From the IMG/VR virus record IMGVR_UViG_2541047882_000001, positions 1 to 11,053 of that record: a DNA stretch of 11,053 nucleotides; one strand, given 5' to 3'. The DNA comes from a virus (Duplodnaviria; Heunggongvirae; Uroviricota; Caudoviricetes). Shown piece after piece: positions 1 through 11,014 of the stretch (its first letter is position 1; every line of letters begins with the position of its first letter). The notes under the pieces were generated by a model, which saw nothing but the letters and a program-made list of their open reading frames with translations, was not told where the DNA came from and did not search any database. The position numbers and the translations under genes were made by a program.

Positions 1-1014
1 CTAACACTCTGCATGGACATTTTGTGGATCTTTTTTGCTGATTTTTAACTTAATGAACTGAGGAACGCTTGCGTCAATTGTAGTGTGATATTGAAATAAG
101 GGGTATTTTCTATCACGATTATTGATTGAATAACTTATTATATCCTTCATAAGTAGCACAAAGTCAGTGGTGAAATTATATTCAAGTATCTCAACCATTT
201 TTAAATGAAAGTGCCAGTATGATTGTAGATATTTTTTTATATCCAATTCATCCGAAAATTTTGTTTTTAAGAATAAAATATATTCATCTTCACCGTGGGT
301 TGAGCACTGATAGAGTTTTTCAATATCTAAACGCTTTAGTCCATAAAGGTTGTGCAATAATTCTAATAGTTTTTCAATGCTATGTATATGGGTGTATAAC
401 TCTGTATAGTCATTAATTTCTTCTTTTTTAAATAGTTCAACTAGTTGGCACCAAATTAATTCTGCATTTTGTATGTAGTCCTTGGAAGCATCAAAATTAT
501 TATTAGTAGTTGAAGCATAAGGATAGCATTTACGATATGTAGAATAACAATTTTCAAATTCTAATTTTGCGTTCTTTTTTATCAAAGGAATGTCTAAAGA
601 TTCAAGGTGTTGTAATGCTTCTATAGTGTTTTTTCTATGGGTATAGAAAAAATCCACTTTGTTTTTCTTTTCTGCTTCTTTGATTTGTTTATCTGTTTGT
701 ATTGTTCGATGAATATTATTGACAACTACTCCCAGTGGAATCGATAAAGATAAAACAGCTAAAGGAAGTTTACTAATGTTTAGGAAATTATTAAATCCTT
801 CCGTATCGATTTGAACATTGTGACCATTCCATGCAACAAATCCGAGCAGAAAAAAACTAATTATTGGAATTGCCAGTGCGGCTTTGAATAATGGTTGATG
901 CGTAAGAGGTTCAGCATTCATCTTGAATGCATTTATCTTGAATAAATAACCCATGTAAACAACCACAAATAAAATGTTAAATAAAACGATGCATTGATTG
1001 ATTGTAAGGTTCAT
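1..1014 (-). CDS. Hypothetical membrane-anchored protein (337 aa): three predicted N-terminal TM helices plus a ~230-aa helical soluble domain of unknown function; AT-rich cargo gene directly downstream of the integrase
   Basis: Uninterrupted 337-codon ORF in very AT-rich DNA, where stop codons are otherwise frequent. ATG at 1014..1012 lies 6 nt after the int stop, with a GAG-containing SD-like stretch just upstream; the stop codon TAG is at 3..1. Hydrophobic segments: CIVLFNILFVVVYMGYLF, LFKAALAIPIISFFLLGFVAW, LPLAVLSLSIPLGVVV. I recognise no catalytic motif. Confidence 0.6.
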   Translation of the reverse strand: MNLTINQCIVLFNILFVVVYMGYLFKINAFKMNAEPLTHQPLFKAALAIPIISFFLLGFVAWNGHNVQIDTEGFNNFLNISKLPLAVLSLSIPLGVVVNNIHRTIQTDKQIKEAEKKNKVDFFYTHRKNTIEALQHLESLDIPLIKKNAKLEFENCYSTYRKCYPYASTTNNNFDASKDYIQNAELIWCQLVELFKKEEINDYTELYTHIHSIEKLLELLHNLYGLKRLDIEKLYQCSTHGEDEYILFLKTKFSDELDIKKYLQSYWHFHLKMVEILEYNFTTDFVLLMKDIISYSINNRDRKYPLFQYHTTIDASVPQFIKLKISKKDPQNVHAEC

Positions 1015-1020
1015 TTTTCT

Positions 1021-2034
1021 CTAAATTATTAATGATAAAGGATTTTTTGTTATTACATCTTCAAGATGCGTTGGCGCAAAGTGAGCATAGATCATAGTCA
1101 TTTTTATATCTGAATGGCCTAAAATCTCTTTAAGAACAAGTATGTTTCCGCCATTCATCATAAAGTGGCTGGCAAATGTATGTCGTAATACATGTGTACA
1201 CTGGCCTTCAGGCAGTACAATCCCCGCTTTAGCTACAGTACGCTCGAAAGTTTTACGGCACGGGGCAAACAACTGGCCTCGTTTTTTTGGTATCTCGTTA
1301 TAAAGCTCTTTTGAGATAGGTATAGAACGTACCTTTCTACTTTTCGTATTTTTGTAAGTGATACGGTATGGCGTAACTTGAGAGCCTTCTAGATTTTCCG
1401 CTTCACTCCACCTTGCACCGGTAGCAAGGCAAATCTTAGTGATGATGAGAACGTGCGGGCTATTAGATTCGGATAAATATTGTAAAAGAGTTTTGATTTC
1501 TTCTGAATAAAGAAAAGAAACCATTTTTTCATCAACTTTAAAGGTTGGAATTCCTGCCAATGGATTTGGAAGCGACCAATGGCCTAGTTTTTTTAGTGTA
1601 CCAAATACGGCAGATAGATAGCGTTGCTCATGATTTACTGTCCGTGGTTGTATCGGCATACAACGTCCATTTATATCCGGAATTTCACCCTTTAAGCGAC
1701 CTTCTCTGTATTGGCTGAAATCCGCCGCTGTGATTTGTGCTGCAATCGGATTTCCCATACCAGCACAAATACCTTTCAATTTCGACATCATGCGGTCGGC
1801 ATCTGCTAATGTTCGACCATATAGATCATGCCACTGCTCAATCAGATCTGATAAGCGTCGATTATCTTGCTTCTCACCCAGCCAGGGTTTGCCTTCCATT
1901 TCGCTGGCGATATATTTTTCATATGCCAGTGCTTCACCTTTCGTGGCGAATTTTTTACGAATACGCTTACCTTTCACCCCATTAGGGCGAAGATCGCACA
2001 ACCATTCACCGCTTTCGATTTTCCGAACTGCCAT
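1021..2034 (-). CDS. int: Phage tyrosine integrase, P2/186 family
   Basis: 337-aa ORF. The N-terminus (MAVRKIESGEWLCDLRPNGVKGKRIRKKF...) parallels the P2 Int N-terminus. The C-terminal catalytic region has LATGARWSEA (Arg box), HVLRHTFASHF (H-x-x-R) and a MIYAHF-like tyrosine motif. Start ATG overlaps the cI stop (TAATG). Confidence 0.9.
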   Translation of the reverse strand: MAVRKIESGEWLCDLRPNGVKGKRIRKKFATKGEALAYEKYIASEMEGKPWLGEKQDNRRLSDLIEQWHDLYGRTLADADRMMSKLKGICAGMGNPIAAQITAADFSQYREGRLKGEIPDINGRCMPIQPRTVNHEQRYLSAVFGTLKKLGHWSLPNPLAGIPTFKVDEKMVSFLYSEEIKTLLQYLSESNSPHVLIITKICLATGARWSEAENLEGSQVTPYRITYKNTKSRKVRSIPISKELYNEIPKKRGQLFAPCRKTFERTVAKAGIVLPEGQCTHVLRHTFASHFMMNGGNILVLKEILGHSDIKMTMIYAHFAPTHLEDVITKNPLSLII

Positions 2035-2609
2035 TACTCACTCACTAAGTATGTGGCCACAACCTTCCCAATCAATTGCACATCAGATACGTCGCAATCA
2101 ACTGGATATTTTCCCCAGTCAATCCGCAATTTGTTACCAGGAAGTAACGTCAATTCTTTGATGCTTTTCGTACCAGAATACTCAAGAAGGAACTTACCGT
2201 CCGTAACAGGGTAATCAGCGATATCTACGAAAAATCTCACTGAACTATCACTGATTATTTGAAGTTCACCTTTGTAGTTTGGGAGTATTGTCTTATCGAA
2301 AATTACGGATGCTTGGCGAACCATATCAGACCCTTCGATTTTATAGGCTGAGATTCGAGTGGTATCACTTGCCACCTGATCAAATCTAACGCCATCACCA
2401 GTGGTTAGCCAGTAGATAGAAGCTCCTGTTTCTAGAGCACAAAGTAGTACTAAATCAGCAGGAAAGTTGTCACGCATGATACGTGTACTTAAAGCACTTG
2501 GAGACATTCCAAGATAATTTGCTAACTGCATTCTGGATGTAAAACCATAAGCCTCACACACCCTTTCGATTGCTTCGCGTGCACCTGTCTTGATGTTGTA
2601 AGTTGTCAT
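2034..2609 (-). CDS. cI: 186-type CI-like phage repressor (N-terminal HTH, C-terminal oligomerisation domain)
   Basis: 191 aa from the internal Met at 2609 (MTTYNIKTG...). HTH-like segment GFTSRMQLANYLGMSPSALSTR. Size matches 186 CI (~190 aa). Lies directly upstream of int on the same strand and divergent from cox, the P2/186 lysogeny-module arrangement. The 38 upstream in-frame codons of the full ORF overlap the operator region and look non-protein-like, so the 2609 start is preferred. Confidence 0.75.
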   Translation of the reverse strand: MTTYNIKTGAREAIERVCEAYGFTSRMQLANYLGMSPSALSTRIMRDNFPADLVLLCALETGASIYWLTTGDGVRFDQVASDTTRISAYKIEGSDMVRQASVIFDKTILPNYKGELQIISDSSVRFFVDIADYPVTDGKFLLEYSGTKSIKELTLLPGNKLRIDWGKYPVDCDVSDVQLIGKVVATYLVSE

Positions 2610-2760
2610 GTTTGTAGTTCGCAACTGTTGACAAACGACAATTTTAAAAATAATCTCCGAATTGTTTCGAATGTAGATATTGATAATTGTCGTTTGTAGA
2701 TTATTAACAACTATTGTCACCAACGCTCATTAGTGACAAACGAAGGAGGAATTTTGCCGT
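2602..2760. promoter_or_regulatory. Divergent cI / cox promoter-operator region with repeated TTGTC/GACAA half-sites
   Basis: Rightward promoter candidate: TTGACA (2628..2633), 17-nt spacer, TAATCT (2651..2656). Perfect 13-bp inverted repeat ACAAACGACAATT (2631..2643) / AATTGTCGTTTGT (2686..2698). Direct repeat TGACAAACGA at 2629..2638 and 2734..2743. Inverted repeat TTGTCAC (2714..2720) / GTGACAA (2733..2739). A further TTGTCA overlaps the cI start codon (2603..2608). Confidence 0.5.
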
Positions 2761-2949
2761 ATGCAAACTAAAGCTGCAACACATTCAGAAAGCAGGTGGG
2801 TACCTCTGAAAACGTTTTGCGACAGGGTTGAAATAAAACTGCGCACGGGACGTTACTGGGTACACACTGGCAAACTCAAAATCAAACCTAAAAGCAAACC
2901 GAAAGAACATGTGTTTGTAGATTGGCTTGCGTGGAACAGTGAAAAGTAA
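2761..2949 (+). CDS. cox: Cox/Apl-like small regulator and excisionase-type protein
   Basis: 62-aa ORF divergent from cI-int, with AAGGAGG SD upstream. C-terminal EHVFVDWLAWN resembles the EYWVYLPAWN segment of P2 Cox as I recall it. Position between cI and cII matches Apl/Cox in 186/P2. Confidence 0.55.
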   Translation: MQTKAATHSESRWVPLKTFCDRVEIKLRTGRYWVHTGKLKIKPKSKPKEHVFVDWLAWNSEK

Positions 2950-2992: not shown

Positions 2993-3496
2993 ATGTTTGA
3001 TTACCAGACCTCTAAACATGCGCACTTTGATGCGGCTTGCCGAGCATTTGCAATTGAGCACAATCTTGAAGATGTGGCCGCTGCCGTTGGTATGAGGCCG
3101 CAGATCCTGCGCAACAAACTGAACCCAGCACAACCGCACCGCCTGACCTGTGATGAGCTTTTGGCTATCACGGATTACACCGAAGATGCGCGTTTGCTTG
3201 ATGGAATGTTAGGTCAGATTAACTGCCTTCCATCCGTGCCGGTGAACAATGCCACAGAAGGCAACATGCAGTTGTGCGCACTGAGTGCCACAGCCAGTGT
3301 GGGCGCGATTGCTGGGGAAGCCGTATCAACTGGCCATATGACTGCCGCCCGCCGTACTCAAATTCTGGATCGTGCCCGCGATGCAATCCGTAGCTTATCC
3401 GTGCTGGCTTATACCGTTGAAAGCCGTATTCACTCTGCGCCTGTTCTGGCCGCTGCGGTGGATCTGGCCACAACCAACGCCACCGGCCTGATGTGA
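2993..3496 (+). CDS. cII: Phage regulatory protein CII family (186 CII-like)
   Basis: 167 aa, close to the ~169 aa of 186 CII. Contains the VGMRPQILRNKLNP motif characteristic of this family as I recall it. Sits immediately after the cox/apl-like gene. Confidence 0.65.
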   Translation: MFDYQTSKHAHFDAACRAFAIEHNLEDVAAAVGMRPQILRNKLNPAQPHRLTCDELLAITDYTEDARLLDGMLGQINCLPSVPVNNATEGNMQLCALSATASVGAIAGEAVSTGHMTAARRTQILDRARDAIRSLSVLAYTVESRIHSAPVLAAAVDLATTNATGLM

Positions 3497-3505
3497 GGGA
3501 ACACC

Positions 3506-3679
3506 ATGAAAGCGTTTGTCACTTACCTGAAAAAAGAATCACCAGACATGCAGTTGCCGAGTGGTTCAACGGGATGGATAGAACTTCCGAACGGTCAGCG
3601 CTGGAACCCTGGCCACATGTACAAATTCAATGGCCAGCAGCCGCGTCGCCCATGGTGGCGTCGTCTGATGGGGCTATAG
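3506..3679 (+). CDS. Small hypothetical protein (57 aa), absent from the supplied ORF track
   Basis: ATG at 3506 preceded by GAGGGA SD (3495..3500). Translation MKAFVTYLKKESPDMQLPSGSTGWIELPNGQRWNPGHMYKFNGQQPRRPWWRRLMGL, stop TAG at 3677..3679. Different frame from the overlapping GTG-initiated 3493..3936 track ORF, whose first part looks non-coding. Confidence 0.4.
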   Translation: MKAFVTYLKKESPDMQLPSGSTGWIELPNGQRWNPGHMYKFNGQQPRRPWWRRLMGL

Positions 3680-3687
3680 GGGGCGTT

Positions 3688-4087
3688 ATGGCGATTAGCC
3701 AGGAACAGCAAAAGCGCGGGTTGGAGCATTGTAAAAGAATGCGTCTTCAGATCAACCCAGCCTACAGCGATGCGGGGGACTGGTGGGACAACTTGACACC
3801 AGAGTGGCGCGGCGTGGTGCTTCATGCTGCTGCTGTTACTTCAGGTGCCGGGGTATTTAAAGCCCACTTAAGCAAATGCTGCTGGCAGGAACTTTATGAA
3901 CGTCTGGGATACCCTGCGTCTGGCCGTGGATTTTAATCTGTTCGTGAAGGGCGAATTTAAAACCCGTACGGAAGATTACCGGCAACTGGGGGAATACTGG
4001 GAATCACTGGGTGGTACCTGGGGCGGGCGCTTCAAATCCAGACCGGATGGCAATCATTTCAGTCTGGAACATAACGGGGTGCGCTGA
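3688..4087 (+). pseudogene. Probable inactivated M15-family peptidase (endolysin-like) gene split across two frames
   Basis: Frame 1: ATG 3688 with AGGGGG SD, 82 codons ending at 3936, containing a QELYERLG segment. Frame 2: 3896..4087 encodes ...RLAVDF...LGGTWGGRFKSRPDGNHFSLEH, matching the A-x-D and WGG...D-x-x-HF-x-LE signatures of the VanY/M15 (LAS) zinc peptidase C-terminal half. The expected S-x-H-x-x-G segment with the first zinc-ligand His is missing at the frame junction (about 3910..3922). The combined ~400 nt is the size of a ~130-aa M15 endolysin. Confidence 0.4.
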
Positions 4088-4425
4088 TGAGCAGCGGGCA
4101 GTGGCTGGTTGTGGTGGCGCTGGCGTTTGTCTGGGGCTGGCTGACCGCTGACTGGCGGCGTGACAGCTTAGAGCTGGCAATCAATACAGCGGCGCAGGTG
4201 GCCGGTAATGAATCGCGAAAAGTAATGCAGGGCATTGCCAGTGATTCGGCCAGAGTGCTGGAAGATAAACTGGAGGCGTTAAAAAATGTGGCACCGCGTG
4301 AAATACGCACGGAAATACTTAAGCCTGTTTTTACTAATCGCTGCCTGTCTGATGAGTTTGTCAGCATGTACAACAGCGCCGCAGCCGGTACCGAACGTGC
4401 GTTATCAGGAAAACCTGAAAACTAA
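4087..4425 (+). CDS. lysB: LysB-like i-spanin (Rz-equivalent lysis protein)
   Basis: 112 aa. N-terminal TM anchor LVVVALAFVWGWL followed by a charged, helical periplasmic region. Start overlaps the upstream stop (TGATG). Contains the embedded/overlapping lysC gene, as in P2. Confidence 0.7.
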   Translation: MSSGQWLVVVALAFVWGWLTADWRRDSLELAINTAAQVAGNESRKVMQGIASDSARVLEDKLEALKNVAPREIRTEILKPVFTNRCLSDEFVSMYNSAAAGTERALSGKPEN

Positions 4426-4585
4426 ATGCACCACGCAGCTGCCGCGCCTGAACGGTACGACAGGAAAAGACGCAACGGAATTACTGACAATTTATCCTGA
4501 AATTTATGGGCAGTGTGCTGCGCGTCATAATCAGTTAGTGGACGAAATTAATTTAAGAGAGAGTATGAGTGATGGAACAAATTAA
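4286..4585 (+). CDS. lysC: LysC-like o-spanin (Rz1-equivalent outer-membrane lipoprotein)
   Basis: 99 aa in an alternate frame overlapping the 3' third of lysB. GGAGG SD 9 nt upstream. Lipoprotein signal: basic n-region MWHRVKYARKY, hydrophobic core, lipobox L-S-A-C, then a Pro-rich mature N-terminus CTTAPQPVP. Confidence 0.65.
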   Translation: MWHRVKYARKYLSLFLLIAACLMSLSACTTAPQPVPNVRYQENLKTKCTTQLPRLNGTTGKDATELLTIYPEIYGQCAARHNQLVDEINLRESMSDGTN

Positions 4586-4829
4586 ACTGTGTGTTTGTGG
4601 TGTAGATATTGTTTTTGAGCCAAATCAGACCGCCTACAACAAATTTATTAATGAAATGGCGATGGATAATAAAGTTGCCCCGGCACATAACTATTTGACA
4701 CGAATTGTGGCAACGGAAAGTAAAGAAGCACTGGCAGAAGTATTAAAACGTCCGGGTGCAGCGCTTCAACTGGTTGGCAAAGTAAATGATATTTATGCGC
4801 CTGAACTGGAAATTGAAGTAAAAAACTGA
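4572..4829 (+). CDS. E: Phage tail assembly chaperone gpE (P2 E-like)
   Basis: 85 aa from ATG 4572 (the track ORF starts 3 nt earlier at GTG). Immediately upstream of the tape-measure gene. Ends at a slippery heptamer, the classic E/E-prime arrangement. Confidence 0.7.
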   Translation: MEQIKLCVCGVDIVFEPNQTAYNKFINEMAMDNKVAPAHNYLTRIVATESKEALAEVLKRPGAALQLVGKVNDIYAPELEIEVKN

Positions 4830-5020
4830 CAAAGCGAGTCCATGAAATTGAAAGGAATGGACTCGAACAATATTTAATTCTCCGCCGTCATTATTTACCG
4901 CATGGTCAGGATTCCGTTGATGATATCGCCGCCGCTATCTGGCTGGACAATCGTCACTGGGAATATACCGGAATAGCCGTGGCCAATGGTGTGGCAAAAG
5001 CATTTAAAGGCACTGAATGA
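4820..5020 (+). CDS. E-prime extension of the E+E-prime -1 frameshift product (slippery site A_AAA_AAC at 4820..4826)
   Basis: From AAAAAAC, the -1 frame is open for 66 codons: KKLTKRVHEIERNGLEQYLILRRHYLPHGQDSVDDIAAAIWLDNRHWEYTGIAVANGVAKAFKGTE. It ends at TGA 5018..5020, overlapping the T start codon (ATGA). The RRHYLPHGQ...IWLD...ANG segment resembles the conserved P2 GpE extension as I recall it. Confidence 0.65.
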   Translation, partial: KKLTKRVHEIERNGLEQYLILRRHYLPHGQDSVDDIAAAIWLDNRHWEYTGIAVANGVAKAFKGTE

Positions 5021-6864
5021 AACAATTAGATTTTACATTGAGCCTGATTGATAAATTATCCCGCCCGTTAAAACAGGTGCAGGGTAACGTCACTGGCTTT
5101 GCGGAAAAATCAAAAGCGGCCTTTATGCAGATCGGTGGCGGTGTACTGGCGCTGGCTGGTACCGGGATGGCGATCAAAGGCGCGTTATCACCGGCAATTG
5201 AAATGTATGACGCGCTGAATGATGCCGCCGCAAAAGGGATTGAGGATTCCGCGCTTAAGACAGTTCAGCGTGATGCCCTGCGCTTCAGTACAACCTATGG
5301 CGCCAGCGCGGTGGAGTTCGTTAAATCCACGGAAAATATTAACGCTTCCATTGCGGGGCTGACGGGTAATGAATTGCCGAAGGTGACGAAAGTCGCCAAT
5401 ACCCTGGCTTTTGCGCTTAAGTCCACAGCGGCGGACACGGCGGAATTTATGGGGCAGATGTTCGGTAACTTTTCAGCCGATGCCGCCAGACTGGGCAAGG
5501 TTGAATTTGCCGAGCAGCTGGCAGGCAAGATGGTTTATATGCGCAAAACCTTTGGCACAGAAATGGCTACTATCAAGGATTTGATGGAAGGTGCGCGTGG
5601 CGTCGGGACTAACTACGGCGTGGGACTGGATGAACAGCTGGCCGTGCTGGGGCAACTTCAGCGGACACTGGGAACGGAAGCCAGCAGCGCCTATGAAGGG
5701 TTTATGACCGGTGCGATTGATGGCGCTAAAAAGCTGGGGCTGTCCTTTACTGACTCCACCGGCAAAATGCTGTCCATGCCTGAAATGCTGATCAAGTTGC
5801 AGGGCAAATATGGCAAAAGCCTTGAAGGGAACCTGAAAGCCCAGGCGGAACTGGATGCAGCCTTTGGTGACAGTTCGGCAGTGGTTAAACAGCTTTACGG
5901 CAATGTCGCGTTACTTCAGCGGAACATCACCGAACTGGGCGGCGCGGACGGTCTGAAGCGTACCCAGGAAATGGCACAAAAAATGGTTAAGCCGTGGGAT
6001 CGCTTTGTGCAAATCCTGAAAGCCATTCAGACCGTGATCGGGCTGACGCTGATCCCGGTGCTGTATCCGGTTCTGAATCGCCTGGCTGATATGGGGCAGA
6101 CCTTTGCCCGCTGGATGCAGCTATTTCCTAACATTGCCCGTGTGATTGGTTATGCGTCGATGGCACTCCTGAGCTTTGCCGCCGTGGGTGCGGTGGCCAA
6201 TATCGTGATGGGGGTTTCCAGATTCATCATGATGGGATTGCGCGGGATCTGGGTGGCGTTAACGGCGGTTACGAAAATCTACACGGCCACTGTCTGGCTG
6301 GCGCAAATGGCGGTAATCGCCTGGAATACCACGCTGAAGTTTTTGCGCGGTGCGTTACTGGCGGTACGCATGGCCGCAATAATGGCCGGAATTGGTATCA
6401 ACCTGATGAGCTGGCCGATCCTGCTTGTGATTGGTGCCATTGCACTGCTGGTTGCCGGTTGTTATCTGCTGGTTAAGCACTGGGACACGATAAAAACAGC
6501 GGTGGTGAATACCGAAGCCTTCCAGACATGTGCCGCCGTGGTGAAATGGCTGGCGGGGATCTTTGCTTCAGCCTGGCAATATATCAGTGAAGGATGGAAC
6601 AGCTTTATTTCTTTGCTGACAGGATTTTCACCGTTTGAGGCGTTAAAGGGGATGGCCTCCGACATTATGTCGCTGTTTGATAATGTCTGGAAGTCAATCA
6701 AAGGGGGATTTCTTAAGTCGTGGAACTGGATTGTTCAGAAACTGAATAAAATTCCCGGCGTGGATATTTCACTGGCCAGTGAAACCACGCAGCCATTAAC
6801 CGGAAATACACTGTCAACGGGTGGTGATTTAAAAGGTGTGGATAACTGTCCATATTGGCAGTGA
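5017..6864 (+). CDS. T: Phage tail tape measure protein (P2 gpT-like), probably C-terminally truncated or frameshifted
   Basis: 615-aa ORF. N-terminal region parallels P2 gpT (MKQLDFTLSLIDKLSRPLKQ... versus the gpT N-terminus as I recall it). Long helical N-terminal half, central hydrophobic/Gly-Ala-rich stretch, Trp-rich C-terminal part. Shorter than P2 gpT (~815 aa), and an overlapping ORF continues in another frame to 7042. Confidence 0.85.
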   Translation: MKQLDFTLSLIDKLSRPLKQVQGNVTGFAEKSKAAFMQIGGGVLALAGTGMAIKGALSPAIEMYDALNDAAAKGIEDSALKTVQRDALRFSTTYGASAVEFVKSTENINASIAGLTGNELPKVTKVANTLAFALKSTAADTAEFMGQMFGNFSADAARLGKVEFAEQLAGKMVYMRKTFGTEMATIKDLMEGARGVGTNYGVGLDEQLAVLGQLQRTLGTEASSAYEGFMTGAIDGAKKLGLSFTDSTGKMLSMPEMLIKLQGKYGKSLEGNLKAQAELDAAFGDSSAVVKQLYGNVALLQRNITELGGADGLKRTQEMAQKMVKPWDRFVQILKAIQTVIGLTLIPVLYPVLNRLADMGQTFARWMQLFPNIARVIGYASMALLSFAAVGAVANIVMGVSRFIMMGLRGIWVALTAVTKIYTATVWLAQMAVIAWNTTLKFLRGALLAVRMAAIMAGIGINLMSWPILLVIGAIALLVAGCYLLVKHWDTIKTAVVNTEAFQTCAAVVKWLAGIFASAWQYISEGWNSFISLLTGFSPFEALKGMASDIMSLFDNVWKSIKGGFLKSWNWIVQKLNKIPGVDISLASETTQPLTGNTLSTGGDLKGVDNCPYWQ

Positions 6865-7139: not shown

Positions 7140-7661
7140 TCAAGTAGTGGTAATTGTATGGCTTTTGCGGGTTATATAAACGCTATTGGCGGGTACGTCT
7201 CTGTTAACGAATGACATTGCGCCAATTGTCACGTTATCACCAATGGTTAGATCATCACCGATGATGCACGAATTTGCACCAATCTCCACATTGTCTCCGA
7301 TCCTGATGGCTTTGATTCCCTCAACCGTTTTTAATCCAATTGTTGTGTTTTGTCGGATACGCACATTCTTACCAATCACAGCCTGGGGGCAAATGACTAT
7401 TCCAACGAAATGATAAATTTTGAATTTTTCCCCTATCTGTGCCCCCAACCCAATATCAGTATTGTATTTTGAAACAAGTCTCCTATGGATTCTTCGCGCC
7501 CATTTCACTCTTGCTCTCCCACCCTGGCAGTAAAGGCAATTCGCTATTCTCCACCAACACATGAACCTGTATCCGGGCTGTCTCCAGCAACGTAGTATGA
7601 TTCTTCTCCATGAGAATTTTTTACTGTTGCTCAGTATGTCCGCGCACAATAACTGCTTCAT
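7140..7661 (-). CDS. Hexapeptide-repeat (left-handed beta-helix) acetyltransferase, serine O-acetyltransferase CysE/WcaB-like
   Basis: 173 aa from ATG 7661, which has a GAGGAA SD immediately upstream (the track ORF offers an earlier Met at 7709). Tandem imperfect hexapeptide repeats IGKNVRIRQNTTIG, IGDNVEIGANSCIIGDDLTIGDNVTIGAMSFV, then DVPANSVYI. N-terminal RIANCLYCQG segment typical of the small SAT-like family. Lies in AT-rich DNA. Confidence 0.75.
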   Translation of the reverse strand: MKQLLCADILSNSKKFSWRRIILRCWRQPGYRFMCWWRIANCLYCQGGRARVKWARRIHRRLVSKYNTDIGLGAQIGEKFKIYHFVGIVICPQAVIGKNVRIRQNTTIGLKTVEGIKAIRIGDNVEIGANSCIIGDDLTIGDNVTIGAMSFVNRDVPANSVYITRKSHTITTT

Positions 7662-8481
7662 TTCCTCGTAGTGAGATATTTTGCTGCTGCTCATAAATTG
7701 TCCGTCCAAATAATCCTGACGGTTATCGTAACATGGGAATGGTCTGATTTTCTGCTAACAGCACAACACTAGGCTATGTGGTTCGGTCTGATAGTGGGCT
7801 TCTTCATCCAAAATGATTTAGTTGGGTTACCAACACAAATCTATTTCTCACATCGTCATAGGCGTCACCAGACGCATTTTAAACCCTTTAGTAACAAACC
7901 CTACCCCGCGCACCAAGTGTAAAAGATCCGAAGCGTGGCGTGGCGCTGGTAGGGTCATATGATGGCGAAATAAATCTTTCGCAGACAAAAACGGCGCTAC
8001 ACCGCACCCGCCTGCGGTTTCTGGATCTGGAAATTTTTTCAGTTTTATTTTTCTACAAACCAGACCGCCAGACCGCACCATTACTGGCGGCTTTGCAGAT
8101 AATCAGAACTGAAATGATTGAAAAGAATTTCAGTGTTTTTCACTTTCATGGATCTGTGGAGGATCGAATACAAAATGTAACCAGCAGAAAAATAAGGGGA
8201 AATAATTTTTTTGTGAGTGGGAAGGATCGTTTTTGTTTTCTGGTTGTTTTCGTCGTAGAAAAGCCGAGGCCAGATTTAGCAAGGCATAGGGACAATTAGA
8301 AGGTTCATAGAAAACTGAAAAAACTGCATGCATGTCGTGGAAACTAGCGAGCTAACAATTGCATCGAAATCTAATTTTAATCTTGGAACTTGAGAAAACT
8401 TTTGTCAAATTAGTTGTCGCTTTTTAGTTGTGGATAACCTTCCGATGTTTACTTGGCAGAGCTTACATTAAGGCATTCGAT

Positions 8482-9600
8482 ATGACTGAAAAATTCACCG
8501 CAATTTTGTTAGATACGAGTATCTACGATCAGTACGGATTAAAGCTTGAGAAAGGACTGCTGGGTAAGCTTTCCCAGTTCAGCAGAACCCCGACAACGTT
8601 TTTGATACCGGATGTAATTTACAATGAAGTTAAAAATCATCTTGAAAGAAAAATCAAGACATCACGTGGCTCCCTTGAGAAAGCTTTCGAAGAAGCTGGC
8701 GATCATCTTTTTTTTGATGGAAGCGAACTAAATGATGCAAGAAAAACATTGATTGAAAGCAGAGAAGTTGAAGGATTAGGAAAGAGCAGATTAGACAGAT
8801 TTGTTGGCGTAACAGATGCGAAGGTTCTAACTACAGGGGATTATGTTTCGGTACCTGAACTCCTTGAACGATACTTCTCTTCTGAAGCTCCTTTCGCAGA
8901 TACAGGTAAGAAAAAAAATGAGTTTCCCGATGCAATAACATTAATGGCCGTCCAAGCCTGGGCTAAAGAGAATGGTGAAAATGTTCTTGCTGTAGCAAGA
9001 GATGACGACTGGCAGAGATTTTGTATTGATGCTGAGAATTTGCACTATGAACCTGACTTATCAAACGCTTTAGCACACTTCAATGAAGAAACCGCACCTT
9101 ATGAACTAATTGATAACTTACAAAAAGCACTTGCTGAAGGACAAGCCGGTAAATTCTTGCATGATGTTGCTGTACACCTTGAGTCAACCTTTGAAGGATT
9201 TGCACCAGAACAAGAGGCAGATTCATATTTATACTGGGAGGCTGACGGATGCTCAGGTGGATTTGAAGATTTTGAGTTTACAGATAACCACTTCACTGTC
9301 ATCGACAAGGATGAAAACTGGGTTGTTATAGAAGCATTTGCAGACATTTCACTTTACGCAGAAGGTGATTTCTCCCTATCGGTTTACGATTCATTCGACA
9401 AAGACCATGCTTACATGGGGTCAATTACCAAGCGAGCCGAGGAAACATATACATCCAGAATACTTATCACAATCTCCGGAGACTTATCAGGTTCTATAGA
9501 TGATTTGACCGTTGACGATGTGGAAGTGATCGAGCGTCCAACGTCGATGGATTTTGGGGAGCTTGAATTAGAGTATGAGCCTGACGAGCAAGACTTGTAA
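8482..9600 (+). CDS. PIN-like nuclease domain protein (DUF4935-like N-terminus) with acidic C-terminal domain of unknown function
   Basis: 372 aa from ATG 8482 (AAGG SD 8 nt upstream; the track ORF begins at an upstream TTG). N-terminal ILLDTSIY (PIN Asp-Thr motif), FLIPDVIYNEV, then FPDAITLMAVQAW ... VLAVARDDDW acidic cluster. C-terminal ~170 aa highly acidic (EADGCSGGFEDFEFTDNHF ... DDLTVDDVEVIE ... EYEPDEQDL). AT-rich composition. Confidence 0.65.
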   Translation: MTEKFTAILLDTSIYDQYGLKLEKGLLGKLSQFSRTPTTFLIPDVIYNEVKNHLERKIKTSRGSLEKAFEEAGDHLFFDGSELNDARKTLIESREVEGLGKSRLDRFVGVTDAKVLTTGDYVSVPELLERYFSSEAPFADTGKKKNEFPDAITLMAVQAWAKENGENVLAVARDDDWQRFCIDAENLHYEPDLSNALAHFNEETAPYELIDNLQKALAEGQAGKFLHDVAVHLESTFEGFAPEQEADSYLYWEADGCSGGFEDFEFTDNHFTVIDKDENWVVIEAFADISLYAEGDFSLSVYDSFDKDHAYMGSITKRAEETYTSRILITISGDLSGSIDDLTVDDVEVIERPTSMDFGELELEYEPDEQDL

Positions 9601-9690
9601 CAACTATGATTAGGCACTATCGCTGTCGCCATTTTGTCGCCAACTCGATTGCAGTTTCGTTGTAACTAATTGAATTTAATCTTTTTTATT

Positions 9691-9724
9691 TTCAGGCAAC
9701 AAAAAACCCATCATCTTTAGAGCA
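9691..9724. terminator. Bidirectional intrinsic terminator between the convergent PIN-like and Abi-like genes
   Basis: A6 (9691..9696), perfect 8-bp stem CCCATCAT (9697..9704) / ATGATGGG (9714..9721) with a 9-nt loop, then TTT (9722..9724). The A-run and T-run flanks allow termination in both directions. Confidence 0.6.
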
Positions 9725-9743
9725 TGATGGGTTTATAACTTGC

Positions 9744-10553
9744 TTATTCTTTTTTTTCATCCCACGATTCAAGAATAAACATAGTTAGTGTATGTGCAGC
9801 ATTGATGGCTAATCGTGCGTGTCGGGGCTTGAGATTGTAAATTTTTCGTCCTGCGCCATGAGCTGAACTCGCATGAGTTCTTAGCGAGCCGATACCATCG
9901 GTGAGAGAATATAAGCCGCTCAAAATGCGTTTTAAGTCCTCATCTTCTACCGCTTTAGTGTCAAGACCTAAATGTTCACGAACGGTCTTCCACAAGCCCT
10001 GCAAATCCTGCTTCGCAGGAATCGGTAGGTTTTCATCTGCGATAAAAATTTTAAATGTTGATTCTAATATATTACAGGCTGCTGATACTGCTTCTCTTGG
10101 GTCAGTATGCAAGTTTTCTAAAGCTCTTGCGAATTCCATTTCTACTGCTGGAGTATTACGTTTCTGGATAGCTTCTTTCAAGGAAAGGGATGCTAGTGAT
10201 GCTCCATCAGTAATGTAACCGCCAGTCACATAGTTCAGCCCATAACGACCAAGTAGTTCCGGCATTTTTTTAACAAACTCGACTTTCTTTTTTTCCCACT
10301 CATAGTATGGATTGGCGGGTAACTCTGACTCCATATAGGTTTCGATTAAGCGACCAAGTAAAACTAATGGTTCATCAGATTCTTTATTAATACGCCTTAA
10401 CCATTCGAGAGCTTTAACGTGCTTAGATCCTTCGGGTGGTTCCCCTGGCGCATCAGCATAGGCAAACAAACTATCCAAACTAGCATGGGTTTCAGTGCTA
10501 GCAACGAAGTCAGCTACAACAGATATTACAGGTTGAGGTATTGGCCGTCCCAT
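9744..10553 (-). CDS. Abortive infection family protein (Abi_C-like C-terminal domain)
   Basis: 269 aa; ATG 10553 with GGAG SD 6 nt upstream. C-terminal LYSLTDGIGSLRTHASSAHGAGRKIYNLKPRHARLAINAAHTLTMFILESW matches my recollection of the Abi_C signature (R-x-x ... HG ... PRHARLA-x-NAA). AT-rich gene immediately downstream of ssrA. Confidence 0.55.
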   Translation of the reverse strand: MGRPIPQPVISVVADFVASTETHASLDSLFAYADAPGEPPEGSKHVKALEWLRRINKESDEPLVLLGRLIETYMESELPANPYYEWEKKKVEFVKKMPELLGRYGLNYVTGGYITDGASLASLSLKEAIQKRNTPAVEMEFARALENLHTDPREAVSAACNILESTFKIFIADENLPIPAKQDLQGLWKTVREHLGLDTKAVEDEDLKRILSGLYSLTDGIGSLRTHASSAHGAGRKIYNLKPRHARLAINAAHTLTMFILESWDEKKE

Positions 10554-10610: not shown

Positions 10611-10648
10611 AAAAAAAGGGACTACGTTTTCACGTAACCCCTTGTTTT
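10611..10648 (-). terminator. ssrA intrinsic terminator
   Basis: On the minus strand, about 10 nt after the encoded CCA end: GGGGTTACGT / ACGTAGTCCC imperfect 10-bp stem (8 pairs) with GAAA loop, followed by T7. Confidence 0.55.
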
Positions 10649-10651
10649 AAT

Positions 10652-11014
10652 TGGTGGAGCTGGCGGGAGTTGAACCCGCGTCCGAAATTCCTACATCCTC
10701 GGTACTACATGCTTAGTCAGTCTTTACATTCGCTTGCCAGCTGCGGACGGACACGCCACTAACAAACTAGCCTGATTAAGTTTTAACGCTTCAACCCCAG
10801 GCAGGGCTTCCACGCGATCTCTTTTGGGTTTGACCTCTCTTGATCCCCGTCCTAAGAGCGGAGGCTAGGGAGAGAGGGCTCTAAGCAGGTTATTAAGCTG
10901 CTAAAGCGTAGTTTTCGTCGTTTGCGACTATTTTTTGCGGCTTTTTACGAGGCCAACCGCCCCTCGGCATGCACCTTGGGTTTCGCAAATCCCGTCGAAT
11001 CCAGAATCAGCCCC
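10652..11014 (-). ncRNA. ssrA: tmRNA (transfer-messenger RNA, SsrA), 363 nt
   Basis: The reverse complement begins GGGGCTGATTCTGGATTCGACGGG and ends GGTTCAACTCCCGCCAGCTCCACCA (tRNA-Ala-like acceptor/T-arm with encoded CCA). Internal tag frame GCA AAC GAC GAA AAC TAC GCT TTA GCA GCT TAA encodes ANDENYALAA-stop (10925..10893). Matches enterobacterial ssrA as I recall it. Confidence 0.95.

What the first reader, a model, noticed from the sequence alone, without database searches (positions are those of the whole stretch)
1..1014. AT-rich 3-TM membrane protein apparently co-transcribed with the cI-int lysogeny operon: candidate moron, exclusion or abortive-infection protein
A 337-aa ORF with much lower GC than neighbouring phage genes starts 6 nt after the integrase stop on the same strand. 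It would therefore be expressed from the lysogenic promoter together with cI and int, the expression logic of prophage-encoded superinfection exclusion and defence genes. It has three N-terminal TM helices and a ~230-aa helical soluble domain with no motif I recognise. Its stop codon coincides with the window edge, so partner genes or the attL side may lie just outside.
Basis: partly seen in the sequence, partly recalled or inferred. Interest (0 to 1): 0.6.

Follow-up and report, generated by a model that had tools for sequence, protein, structure and literature searches.

The report
Uncharacterised prophage membrane protein after integrase
The last gene of a decayed 186-like prophage in E. 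coli encodes a membrane protein from a large, unnamed, prophage-borne family that is probably switched on together with the phage repressor and most likely protects the host from other phages, although nobody has tested this.

Summary
Window 1..1014 (-) holds a 337-aa ORF, 6 nt after the integrase stop. Its GC is 0.30 against 0.41 for int. It has three N-terminal hydrophobic helices and a cytoplasmic remainder.

Extending the locus shows a 49-nt repeat of the ssrA 3' end (attR) 80 nt past the stop. The gene is therefore the last gene inside an ssrA-integrated 186/ESSI-2-like prophage. It occupies the slot that Orf69 holds in the phage 186 lysogenic operon (pL-cI-int-Orf69-attP-terminator). It has no obligate partner gene.

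The last TM hairpin and the juxtamembrane helix are nearly invariant. The ~200-aa C-domain keeps its fold but is hypervariable. dN/dS is 0.1-0.45, so the gene is functional.

Profile comparisons give a plausible but unproven remote link to the retron Ec48 two-TM suicide effector.

Best reading: a lysogen-expressed, stand-alone membrane defence protein. The function is untested.

The parts
1..1014 (-). 337-aa ORF (stop codon at 1-3). Identical to E. coli UMEA 3150-1 protein ERB20943.1 / G918_01138, annotated 'hypothetical protein'.
937..1008 (-). TM1 (aa 3-26). Poorly conserved (entropy 2.5 bits); absent or duplicated in relatives.
832..894 (-). TM2 (aa 41-61). Invariant residues Q40, F43, P50, G58 and W62 lie at or around it.
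718..777 (-). TM3 (aa 80-99), motif ISKLPLxxLSLSxPxGVxVNN. The most conserved segment (entropy 0.67 bits).
610..717 (-). Juxtamembrane cytoplasmic helix (aa 100-135), motif NIHRTIQTxxQIxEAxxKNxxDxFYSHxKN. It carries 10 of the family's 22 invariant columns.
4..609 (-). C-terminal alpha/beta domain (aa 136-337). Confidently modelled (pLDDT 93.5, pTM 0.88), hypervariable in sequence (entropy 2.76 bits), with no fold match.
1015..1020 (-). 6-nt spacer (AGAAAA on the coding strand) between the int stop TAG and the ORF ATG. There is no room for a terminator.
1021..2034 (-). 186-type tyrosine integrase, the upstream gene of the same putative operon.
2034..2612 (-). 186-type CI repressor (Phage_CI_repr + Phage_CI_C). 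Its stop overlaps the int start (TAATG).
2613..2760 (.). Divergent switch region between cI and the cox/apl-like gene (2761..2949 +). By analogy with 186 pR/pL, this is where the lysogenic promoter should lie. Inferred, not mapped.
10650..10700 (-). 3' end of ssrA: the att identity block (attL). Its 49-nt repeat (attR) lies 80 nt beyond window position 1.
10616..10643 (-). Strong hairpin-plus-T-run terminator 8 nt after the ssrA CCA end. In the circular phage it would follow cI-int-ORF-attP, the same layout as the 186 'terminator of lysogenic operon'.

Best explanation
The ORF is an accessory (moron) gene in the third slot of the 186-type lysogenic operon (pL - cI - int - X - attP). It is made at a low constitutive level in the lysogen together with the repressor, including in this decayed prophage.

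Its product is an inner-membrane protein with N-out/C-in topology. The conserved TM2-TM3 hairpin and juxtamembrane helix form the working membrane module. The fast-evolving ~200-aa cytoplasmic domain acts as the specificity or sensor module.

The most likely function is stand-alone protection of the lysogen against other phages. On recognising a phage component in the cytoplasm, the protein would disturb the membrane, giving an abortive-infection type outcome. This resembles the retron Ec48 two-TM effector, to which it may be distantly related, but without a reverse transcriptase.

Shown here: gene position, family, conservation pattern, purifying selection, accessory status.

Inferred: transcription from pL, topology, sensor/effector split, defence function.
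For: Position.
- An att repeat lies 80 nt after the stop in six independent contigs.
- The gene sits in the same slot as 186 Orf69, with the operon terminator beyond attP.

Tight linkage to repressor operons.
- 77 of 88 family loci lie directly after cI-int.
- Vibrio double jelly-roll prophages carry a relative 1 nt after an S24/CI repressor.

Other members occupy recognised cargo or defence sites.
- The P2 portal/ogr-gpA hotspot.
- A prophage end beside PRTase-CE and DUF4747 genes.
- Behind a SMEK-domain protein that hits a PADLOC model.
- The int-att interval of P2-likes is described as a minor defence hotspot (PMC13586616).
- In an integrase-anchored sample the slot holds varied, mutually exclusive cargo, including a dCTP-deaminase-like gene.

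Conservation pattern.
- Entropy is 0.67 bits for TM3 and 0.97 for the juxtamembrane helix, against 2.53 for TM1 and 2.76 for the C-domain. The membrane part is therefore more than an anchor.
- Among prophages whose int is at least 85% identical, the N-domain is 60% and the C-domain 35% identical.
- The C-domain fold is nevertheless kept: profile matches run to positions ~280-320, and the model is confident.

Selection and retention.
- Purifying selection, with omega 0.08-0.45.
- Three different deletion derivatives keep cII-cox-cI-int-ORF intact.

Topology.
- 8 K/R after TM3 and a net negative loop 2.
- Relatives with 2 or 4 TMs keep the same out-to-in final helix.

Remote link to the retron Ec48 effector.
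- Family member P0188 against the Ec48 profile: probability 69.5%, E 4e-5.
- Broad family profile against the Ec48 profile: probability 45%, E 2e-4, over 144 colinear columns.
- A weak precomputed PF28197 hit on P0273.
- The Ec48 effector needs its TM helices for defence (bioRxiv 10.1101/2020.06.21.156273).
Against: - There are no expression data for this gene.
- Nothing matches a PADLOC, Pfam or NCBIfam model.
- The Ec48 link fails with the narrower profile (A1 against A4, probability 0.7%) and gives at most 13 bits by hmmsearch.
- Pairwise dN/dS never exceeds 1 except in one near-identical pair, so positive selection on the C-domain is not shown. Relaxed constraint would give the same pattern.
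- The other genes in the slot are mostly unknowns, so 'defence hotspot' rests largely on the literature and on a few cases.
- Hotspots also carry non-defence cargo.
Confidence: 0.5

Rival explanations
1. [quoted passage not shown]
For: - Three predicted TM helices, prophage-borne, and placed to be expressed in the lysogen.
- SieA is likewise a three-TM inner-membrane protein, with sequence types less than 30% identical to each other (PMC10883804).
- The strongly conserved TM2-TM3 hairpin could bind a conserved host or phage membrane component.
Against: - No similarity to SieA (hhalign probability 0.3%).
- The protein is twice the size of SieA.
- The variable part is predicted to be cytoplasmic, whereas the periplasmic loop is short (17 aa) and fairly conserved. 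An entry blocker would be expected to vary where it meets the injection machinery.
- The possible relationship to the Ec48 suicide effector points the other way.
Confidence: 0.2
2. Accessory gene with a non-defence role. It could change host envelope physiology (lysogenic conversion), or serve the prophage itself, for example by adjusting induction, lysis timing or lysogen fitness.
For: - The int-att position is the classical site of lysogenic-conversion genes in other phages (own knowledge: gtrABC and oac in P22 and Shigella phages; gtrC/gtrB of P22 seen).
- No known defence model matches.
- The topology (three TMs, N-out/C-in) is that of class I holins (own knowledge, not tested).
- The same prophage carries a hexapeptide acetyltransferase, so it does carry conversion-type cargo.
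Against: - The gene is not needed by the phage. It is present in only ~26% of related prophages, and absent from phage 186 and from the annotated genes of ESSI-2.
- The gene does not co-vary with cI or int.
- It recurs in sites enriched for defence genes in four unrelated prophage types.
- A hypervariable cytoplasmic domain is hard to explain by a housekeeping interaction.
Confidence: 0.2
3. An incomplete or dependent module. The protein works only with a partner encoded elsewhere (as the Ec48 effector needs its RT and msDNA), or it is a decaying passenger of a defective prophage with no current function.
For: - The prophage in the window is heavily deleted.
- One lineage has a second ~397-aa gene behind the family gene.
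- The nearest candidate relative, the Ec48 effector, is not autonomous.
Against: - The 397-aa gene also occurs alone directly after int, at 96% identity, so it is stacked cargo and not a partner.
- Most loci have no downstream same-strand gene.
- The gene beyond att differs in every context.
- No RT domain or retron RNA lies near the gene.
- The ORF is intact, identical on 19 contigs, and under purifying selection.
Confidence: 0.1

Closest known systems
Retron Ec48 family effector membrane protein (Pfam PF28197)
   Same: - N-terminal TM helices followed by a cytoplasmic domain.
- The last TM, the juxtamembrane helix (FYxH aligned with HIAHF) and a hYxxhFPxS motif align colinearly over 94-144 columns.
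- One family member carries a weak precomputed PF28197 hit.
- The Ec48 TM helices are required for defence, and the system kills the infected cell.
   Different: - The similarity is not significant with the narrower profile.
- No NCBIfam hit.
- 3 TMs and 337 aa here, against 2 TMs and 237 aa for Ec48.
- No reverse transcriptase or retron RNA next to the gene.
- It is placed in a phage lysogeny operon instead of a retron cassette.
- The second half of the C-domain has no counterpart in Ec48.
Orf69 (CP69) of phage 186, third gene of the lysogenic operon
   Same: Same slot: directly after int (14 nt in 186, 6 nt here), abutting the attP arm, with the operon terminator on the far side of attP.
   Different: No sequence similarity (hhalign probability 0.07%). 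Orf69 is only 83 aa.
Lambda RexA/RexB exclusion system
   Same: A prophage gene downstream of the repressor gene on the same strand. The arrangement pairs a membrane component with a cytoplasmic component, here fused into one protein. The mechanistic analogy comes from my own knowledge.
   Different: No similarity to RexB or RexA. One protein here instead of two.
P22 SieA superinfection-exclusion protein
   Same: A three-TM inner-membrane protein of a prophage, expressed in the lysogen, with highly divergent sequence types (PMC10883804).
   Different: No similarity. SieA is 162-164 aa and lacks a large cytoplasmic domain. It lies in a different genome position.
PdpSau of Staphylococcus aureus prophages
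   Same: A single membrane-anchored prophage protein with a cytoplasmic C-terminal part. It causes abortive infection with loss of membrane polarity (PMC10127798).
   Different: Gram-positive host, one membrane helix, linked to the lysis genes. Homology was not tested here.

Membership tests
Retron Ec48 effector family (PF28197 / NCBIfam 'retron Ec48 family effector membrane protein') | Scores above threshold with the family's curated HMM | tested here: not met
   NCBIfam gives no family for the window protein or for 7 relatives. The local Pfam copy lacks PF28197: a true Ec48 effector gets no hit. An HMM I built from 17 Ec48 effectors gives at most 13 bits on any family member.
Retron Ec48 effector family (PF28197 / NCBIfam 'retron Ec48 family effector membrane protein') | Detectable homology by profile-profile comparison | tested here: inconclusive
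   hhalign results: A1 against A4 probability 0.7%; A3 against A4 1.3%; P0188 against A4 69.5%, E 4e-5; A5 against A4 45%, E 2e-4, over 144 colinear columns. P0273 carries a precomputed 'weak' PF28197 hit.
Retron Ec48 effector family (PF28197 / NCBIfam 'retron Ec48 family effector membrane protein') | Encoded next to a retron reverse transcriptase and msr/msd RNA | tested here: not met
   There is no RVT domain among the window ORFs that were scanned or among the called genes of the loci that carry this same protein. Rfam finds only the tmRNA in the window. Family genes follow int or a repressor instead.
Cargo of the int-att interval of P2/186-like prophages (minor defence hotspot, PMC13586616) | Lies between the integrase gene and the att site, inside the element | tested here: met
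   A 49-nt repeat of the ssrA 3' end lies 80 nt past the stop in L003-L008, and int lies 6 nt upstream.
Cargo of the int-att interval of P2/186-like prophages (minor defence hotspot, PMC13586616) | The interval holds variable, interchangeable genes among related phages | tested here: met
   In the integrase-anchored sample of 80 prophages: family gene in 21, a ~400-aa unknown family in 19, other genes (dCTP-deaminase-like, SMEK, 506-aa unknown, small TM proteins), none in 12.
Known anti-phage defence systems (PADLOC-DB 2.0) | Match to any defence-protein HMM | tested here: not met
   0 families at E<=0.01 for the window protein and 0 at E<=0.001 for P0075.
Lambda RexAB | Sequence homology to RexA or RexB | tested here: not met
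   hhalign probability 0.28% against RexB and 0.14% against RexA.
P22 SieA | Sequence homology to SieA | tested here: not met
   hhalign probability 0.28%.
P22 SieA | Blocks DNA injection of superinfecting phage | not testable with these tools
   This needs infection assays.
186 lysogenic operon (pL transcript) | Co-transcribed with cI and int from the lysogenic promoter | not testable with these tools
   The layout is consistent: 6-nt gap, no terminator-like site, and the 186 annotation. No RNA data are available.

The most novel reading that the evidence does not exclude
The family is a new, widespread, single-gene anti-phage system. It would be a retron-independent descendant or sister of the Ec48-type membrane effector that has acquired its own hypervariable cytoplasmic sensor domain with a previously unseen fold. 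It is carried in the repressor operons of both tailed (Peduoviridae) and non-tailed double jelly-roll prophages, so that the lysogen is armed whenever the repressor is made.
Probability: 0.35. Interest if true: 0.65.

Novelty: new variant of a known kind. Interest (0 to 1): 0.5.

Why it matters
If the reading is right, a family of more than a thousand sequence clusters with no name in any database is a stand-alone membrane defence carried by prophages.

It would add a new sensor fold to the catalogue. It would also show that the third slot of the 186-type lysogenic operon is a cargo site for immunity genes wired to the repressor promoter. And it would link a free-standing protein to the retron Ec48 effector, which bears on how retron systems recruited their effectors.

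In practice the gene could affect phage-therapy host range in E. coli, Salmonella, Klebsiella and Enterobacter.

If the reading is wrong, the gene is still a well-defined marker of the int-att cargo slot.

Tried and rejected
- **Sequence libraries.** Pfam, NCBIfam, PADLOC and the PDB sequence profile all gave nothing. PHROGs gave only an unknown-function family (phrog_17460). The weak DctQ hits in 16 members are TM-composition noise.
- **Fold searches.**
  - BFVD gave nothing, and AFDB50 was not available.
- **Megablast in E. coli.** The gene has no match in 5426 complete E. coli genomes. Blastn with the N-terminal part found relatives in only 3.
- **Partner gene.** I suspected the 397-aa downstream gene in the Klebsiella/Citrobacter lineage. 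I rejected it because the same gene occurs alone after int.
- **Conserved face on the juxtamembrane helix.** The periodicity test was not significant (995 of 5000 shuffles), so no such claim is made.
- **The Vibrio match might have been an integrase.** It is not: it has no Pfam hit, and it matches the family at 97.8% probability.
- **Own promoter inside int.** Promoter-like sites are no more frequent than in shuffled sequence, so this is neither shown nor excluded.
- **Homology to known candidates.** Orf69, RexA, RexB and SieA gave none.
- **Literature by accession number.** No paper mentions these proteins.

Full report
**1. The observation**

Window 1..1014 (minus strand) is a 337-codon ORF starting with ATG. 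Its stop codon is bases 1-3, so it sits on the window edge.

The gene upstream on the same strand is a tyrosine integrase (1021..2034; Int_N + Phage_integrase). The int stop TAG, the spacer AGAAAA and the ORF ATG follow one another, giving a 6-nt gap. Upstream of int lies a 186-type CI repressor (2034..2612). Its stop overlaps the int start as TAATG.

GC content of the genes:

| Gene | GC |
|---|---|
| ORF | 0.302 (GC3 0.27) |
| int | 0.413 |
| cI | 0.415 |
| cII | 0.55 |
| tape measure | 0.52 |

Hydropathy gives three hydrophobic segments (aa ~3-25, 41-62, 80-99) and nothing after aa 110. AlphaFold2 on a 52-sequence alignment gives a confident model (pLDDT 93.6, pTM 0.76). It has helices at 3-26, 41-61 and 82-135, followed by an alpha/beta domain.

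**2. Where the gene sits**

The right end of the window is ssrA (tmRNA, 10652..11014, minus strand). It is 99.5% identical to E. coli.

The exact protein is encoded on 19 public contigs. One of them (L003, E. coli UMEA 3150-1) is this same locus and extends 10 kb further. In six contigs, a 30-51-nt copy of the ssrA 3' end starts exactly 80 nt after the ORF stop; it is perfect in five of them, has one difference in L003, and in three is cut short by the end of the locus. That repeat is attR, so the ORF is the last gene inside the prophage.

What lies beyond attR differs from contig to contig:
- an AIDA-type autotransporter in L003;
- a P4-like satellite in L004;
- dinI and ybjQ in L005.

There is therefore no conserved outside partner.

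Intact relatives are ESSI-2/186-like Peduoviridae with the order terminase, portal, ogr, gpA ... cII, cox | cI, int, ORF (L004, L006).

The window itself is a deletion derivative. The replication and head genes are gone, only a 63-aa endolysin fragment remains, and the tape measure is shortened. Three different deletion derivatives all keep cII-cox-cI-int-ORF.

**3. Operon logic**

The curated record of phage 186 shows pL, cI, int, then a third gene Orf69 14 nt after int, then attP. A 'predicted terminator of lysogenic operon' lies on the far side of the attP core.

The window has the same layout. A strong terminator lies 8 nt after the ssrA end on the phage side of attL (10616..10643). Intact prophages show that this side belongs to the same phage. 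In the circular phage this terminator would therefore follow cI-int-ORF-attP.

No terminator-like site lies between int and the ORF. Promoter-like sites are not enriched there.

Co-transcription is therefore well supported by analogy, but it was not measured for this gene.

**4. The family**

A word-indexed search found 76 homologues, all 'hypothetical'. An exhaustive profile search found 1044 clusters at 50% identity (223 at E<=1e-30). The listed hits are at most 443 aa long, and most are 300-400 aa.

Among 214 retrieved members with the core motif, the N-terminal part has a median of 126 aa and the C-terminal part 202 aa. The architecture is uniform.

No Pfam, NCBIfam or PADLOC model matches any tested member. 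PHROGs has the family as phrog_17460, function unknown. No paper mentions the accession numbers.

**5. Context of relatives**

Of 88 loci fetched through family motifs, 77 have the gene directly after cI-int on the same strand. In the integrase-anchored sample the start lies between about -44 and +6 nt of the int stop. Two more loci have one inserted gene: a SMEK-domain protein that hits a PADLOC model, or an IS element.

Other members lie in these places:
- between portal/ogr and gpA of P2-like phages, which is the main P2 defence hotspot of the literature (PMC9122126, PMC13586616);
- at the end of a prophage with a lambda-J-type tail-tip gene, beside PRTase-CE and DUF4747 genes;
- in Xenorhabdus and Pseudomonas prophage-like regions;
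- 1 nt after an S24/CI repressor at the end of Vibrio double jelly-roll prophages (hhalign probability 97.8%; not an integrase).

In an unbiased sample of 80 prophages chosen by their integrase, the slot after int was filled as follows:

| Content of the slot after int | Loci |
|---|---|
| Family gene (directly after int 19, a little further downstream 2) | 21 |
| Unrelated ~400-aa unknown family | 19 |
| P4-type integrase of the next element | 8 |
| Other genes (dCTP-deaminase-like gene, SMEK protein, 506-aa unknown, portal-like fragment, small membrane proteins, short ORFs) | 13 |
| No ORF of at least 60 aa | 12 |
| Contig ended | 7 |

The 397-aa gene that follows the family gene in one lineage also occurs alone after int, at 96% identity. 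It is stacked cargo and not a partner.

A 2026 survey states that 3% of P2 defence systems lie between int and att (PMC13586616).

**6. Evolution**

All 22 invariant columns lie between aa 40 and 128. Column entropy by segment:

| Segment | Entropy (bits) |
|---|---|
| TM1 | 2.53 |
| TM2 | 1.45 |
| TM3 | 0.67 |
| Juxtamembrane helix | 0.97 |
| C-domain | 2.76 |

For prophages whose integrase is at least 85% identical to the window's, median identities are int 86%, cI 74%, N-domain 60% and C-domain 35%.

Pairwise dN/dS is 0.08-0.45 for the gene, against 0.02-0.08 for int. For the window against L029 the values are 0.17 (N-domain), 0.42 (C-domain) and 0.05 (int). The gene is therefore under purifying selection, but much less tightly than int. 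Positive selection is not shown.

In several pairs, dS of the gene is far below dS of the adjacent int (0.10 against 0.80; 0.04 against 1.2). In others the reverse holds. The gene is thus exchanged as a cassette.

**7. Structure and topology**

The stretch after TM3 carries 8 K/R, and loop 2 is net negative. Relatives with an extra N-terminal TM begin with a basic N-terminus. The two-TM Vibrio branch keeps the same final out-to-in helix. The C-domain is therefore predicted to be cytoplasmic. This is an inference.

A test for a single conserved face on the juxtamembrane helix was not significant.

**8. A lead to a known effector**

A search with the N-domain profile found a Vibrio member (P0273) that carries a precomputed weak hit to PF28197, the retron Ec48 effector. 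The local Pfam copy lacks that model, so I built a profile of 17 named Ec48 effectors.

| Comparison | Result |
|---|---|
| Narrow family profile (A1) against Ec48 | probability 0.7%; best local match pairs the family Y..Y..(Y/F)P.(A/S)S motif with Ec48 WY..IFP.SK |
| Family member P0188 against Ec48 | probability 69.5%, E 4e-5, 94 columns |
| Broad family profile (A5, includes the two-TM branch) against Ec48 | probability 45%, E 2e-4, 144 colinear columns (last TM, juxtamembrane helix, first half of the cytoplasmic domain) |
| BLASTP of P0273 against an Ec48 effector | same register, E 0.045 |
| hmmsearch with the Ec48 HMM | at most 13 bits |

I rate the relationship as plausible but unproven.

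The Ec48 effector has two TM helices that are required for defence. The system kills the cell when phage proteins inhibit RecBCD (bioRxiv 10.1101/2020.06.21.156273).

No reverse transcriptase or retron RNA lies near the window gene.

**9. Interpretation**

The pattern has three elements: an almost invariant membrane hairpin with a juxtamembrane helix; a structurally conserved but fast-diverging cytoplasmic domain; and prophage cargo sites wired to repressor operons in unrelated virus groups. It fits best a stand-alone membrane defence protein with a conserved effector and a variable sensor (confidence 0.5).

| Reading | Confidence | Main reasoning |
|---|---|---|
| Stand-alone membrane defence protein | 0.5 | Fits the pattern above |
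| Entry blocker of the SieA kind | 0.2 | Explains the variable cytoplasmic domain poorly |
| Non-defence accessory role | 0.2 | Cannot be excluded |
| Dependence on an unseen partner, or decay | 0.1 | Purifying selection and the lack of any conserved neighbour argue against it |

**10. Verdict**

The gene is a member of a large unnamed family. As a kind of thing, a prophage moron likely to protect the lysogen, it is known. As a protein family and fold, it is new.

I score interest at 0.5.

Noticed in passing
window 8428-10553: An AbiJ-like protein (Abi_C; PADLOC AbiJ, 9e-17; 9744..10553 -) and a PIN_12 protein (8428..9600 +) lie directly next to ssrA. In intact relatives they are cargo at the tail-gene (attL) end of the same prophage, and one relative carries different genes after AbiJ. 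Both ends of this phage therefore carry accessory or defence-type genes.
   Followed up: partly
window 7140-7709: A hexapeptide-repeat acetyltransferase sits on the minus strand between the phage tail genes and the PIN/AbiJ pair. It is a possible lysogenic-conversion (surface polysaccharide O-acetylation) gene.
   Followed up: no
window 3493-6864: The prophage is defective. Fil is followed by a truncated ORF fused to a 63-aa endolysin (Peptidase_M15_4) fragment, then spanins, a tail chaperone and a shortened tape measure (615 aa against 655-686 aa in intact relatives). Replication, head and baseplate genes are deleted. Other strains carry different deletions but keep cII-cox-cI-int-ORF.
   Followed up: partly
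window 10616-10643: A 12-bp-stem terminator lies 8 nt after the ssrA CCA end, on phage DNA. It would terminate ssrA in the lysogen and the cI-int-ORF operon in the circular phage, mirroring the phage 186 annotation.
   Followed up: yes
L141:6022-7209, L149:5789-6982, L021:7069-8262 and 16 more loci: A second unnamed family of ~395-418 aa (no Pfam or PADLOC hit) is the other common occupant of the slot directly after int, in 19 of 80 sampled prophages. It contains a conserved RYSVxGLPCLYLGxSLYVCWxEM stretch that resembles a RES-domain motif by eye only.
   Followed up: partly
L003:11094-16676: Elements are stacked in tandem at ssrA. After attR comes a 1526-aa AIDA-type autotransporter, then a 45-nt, 91% repeat of the sequence that follows ssrA. 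In other strains a P4-like satellite follows attR directly.
   Followed up: partly
protein cluster of the window ORF: Most of the 415 members of the 90%-identity cluster are partial Salmonella enterica proteins cut at contig ends. This suggests that assemblies often break inside or next to this AT-rich gene. The cause is unknown.
   Followed up: no
L013:11865-13128: In one Klebsiella-type locus, a genuine retron Ec48 (RT plus effector) lies about 5 kb downstream of a family gene, inside the neighbouring P4-like satellite. This is a coincidence of stacked elements and not a linkage.
   Followed up: partly
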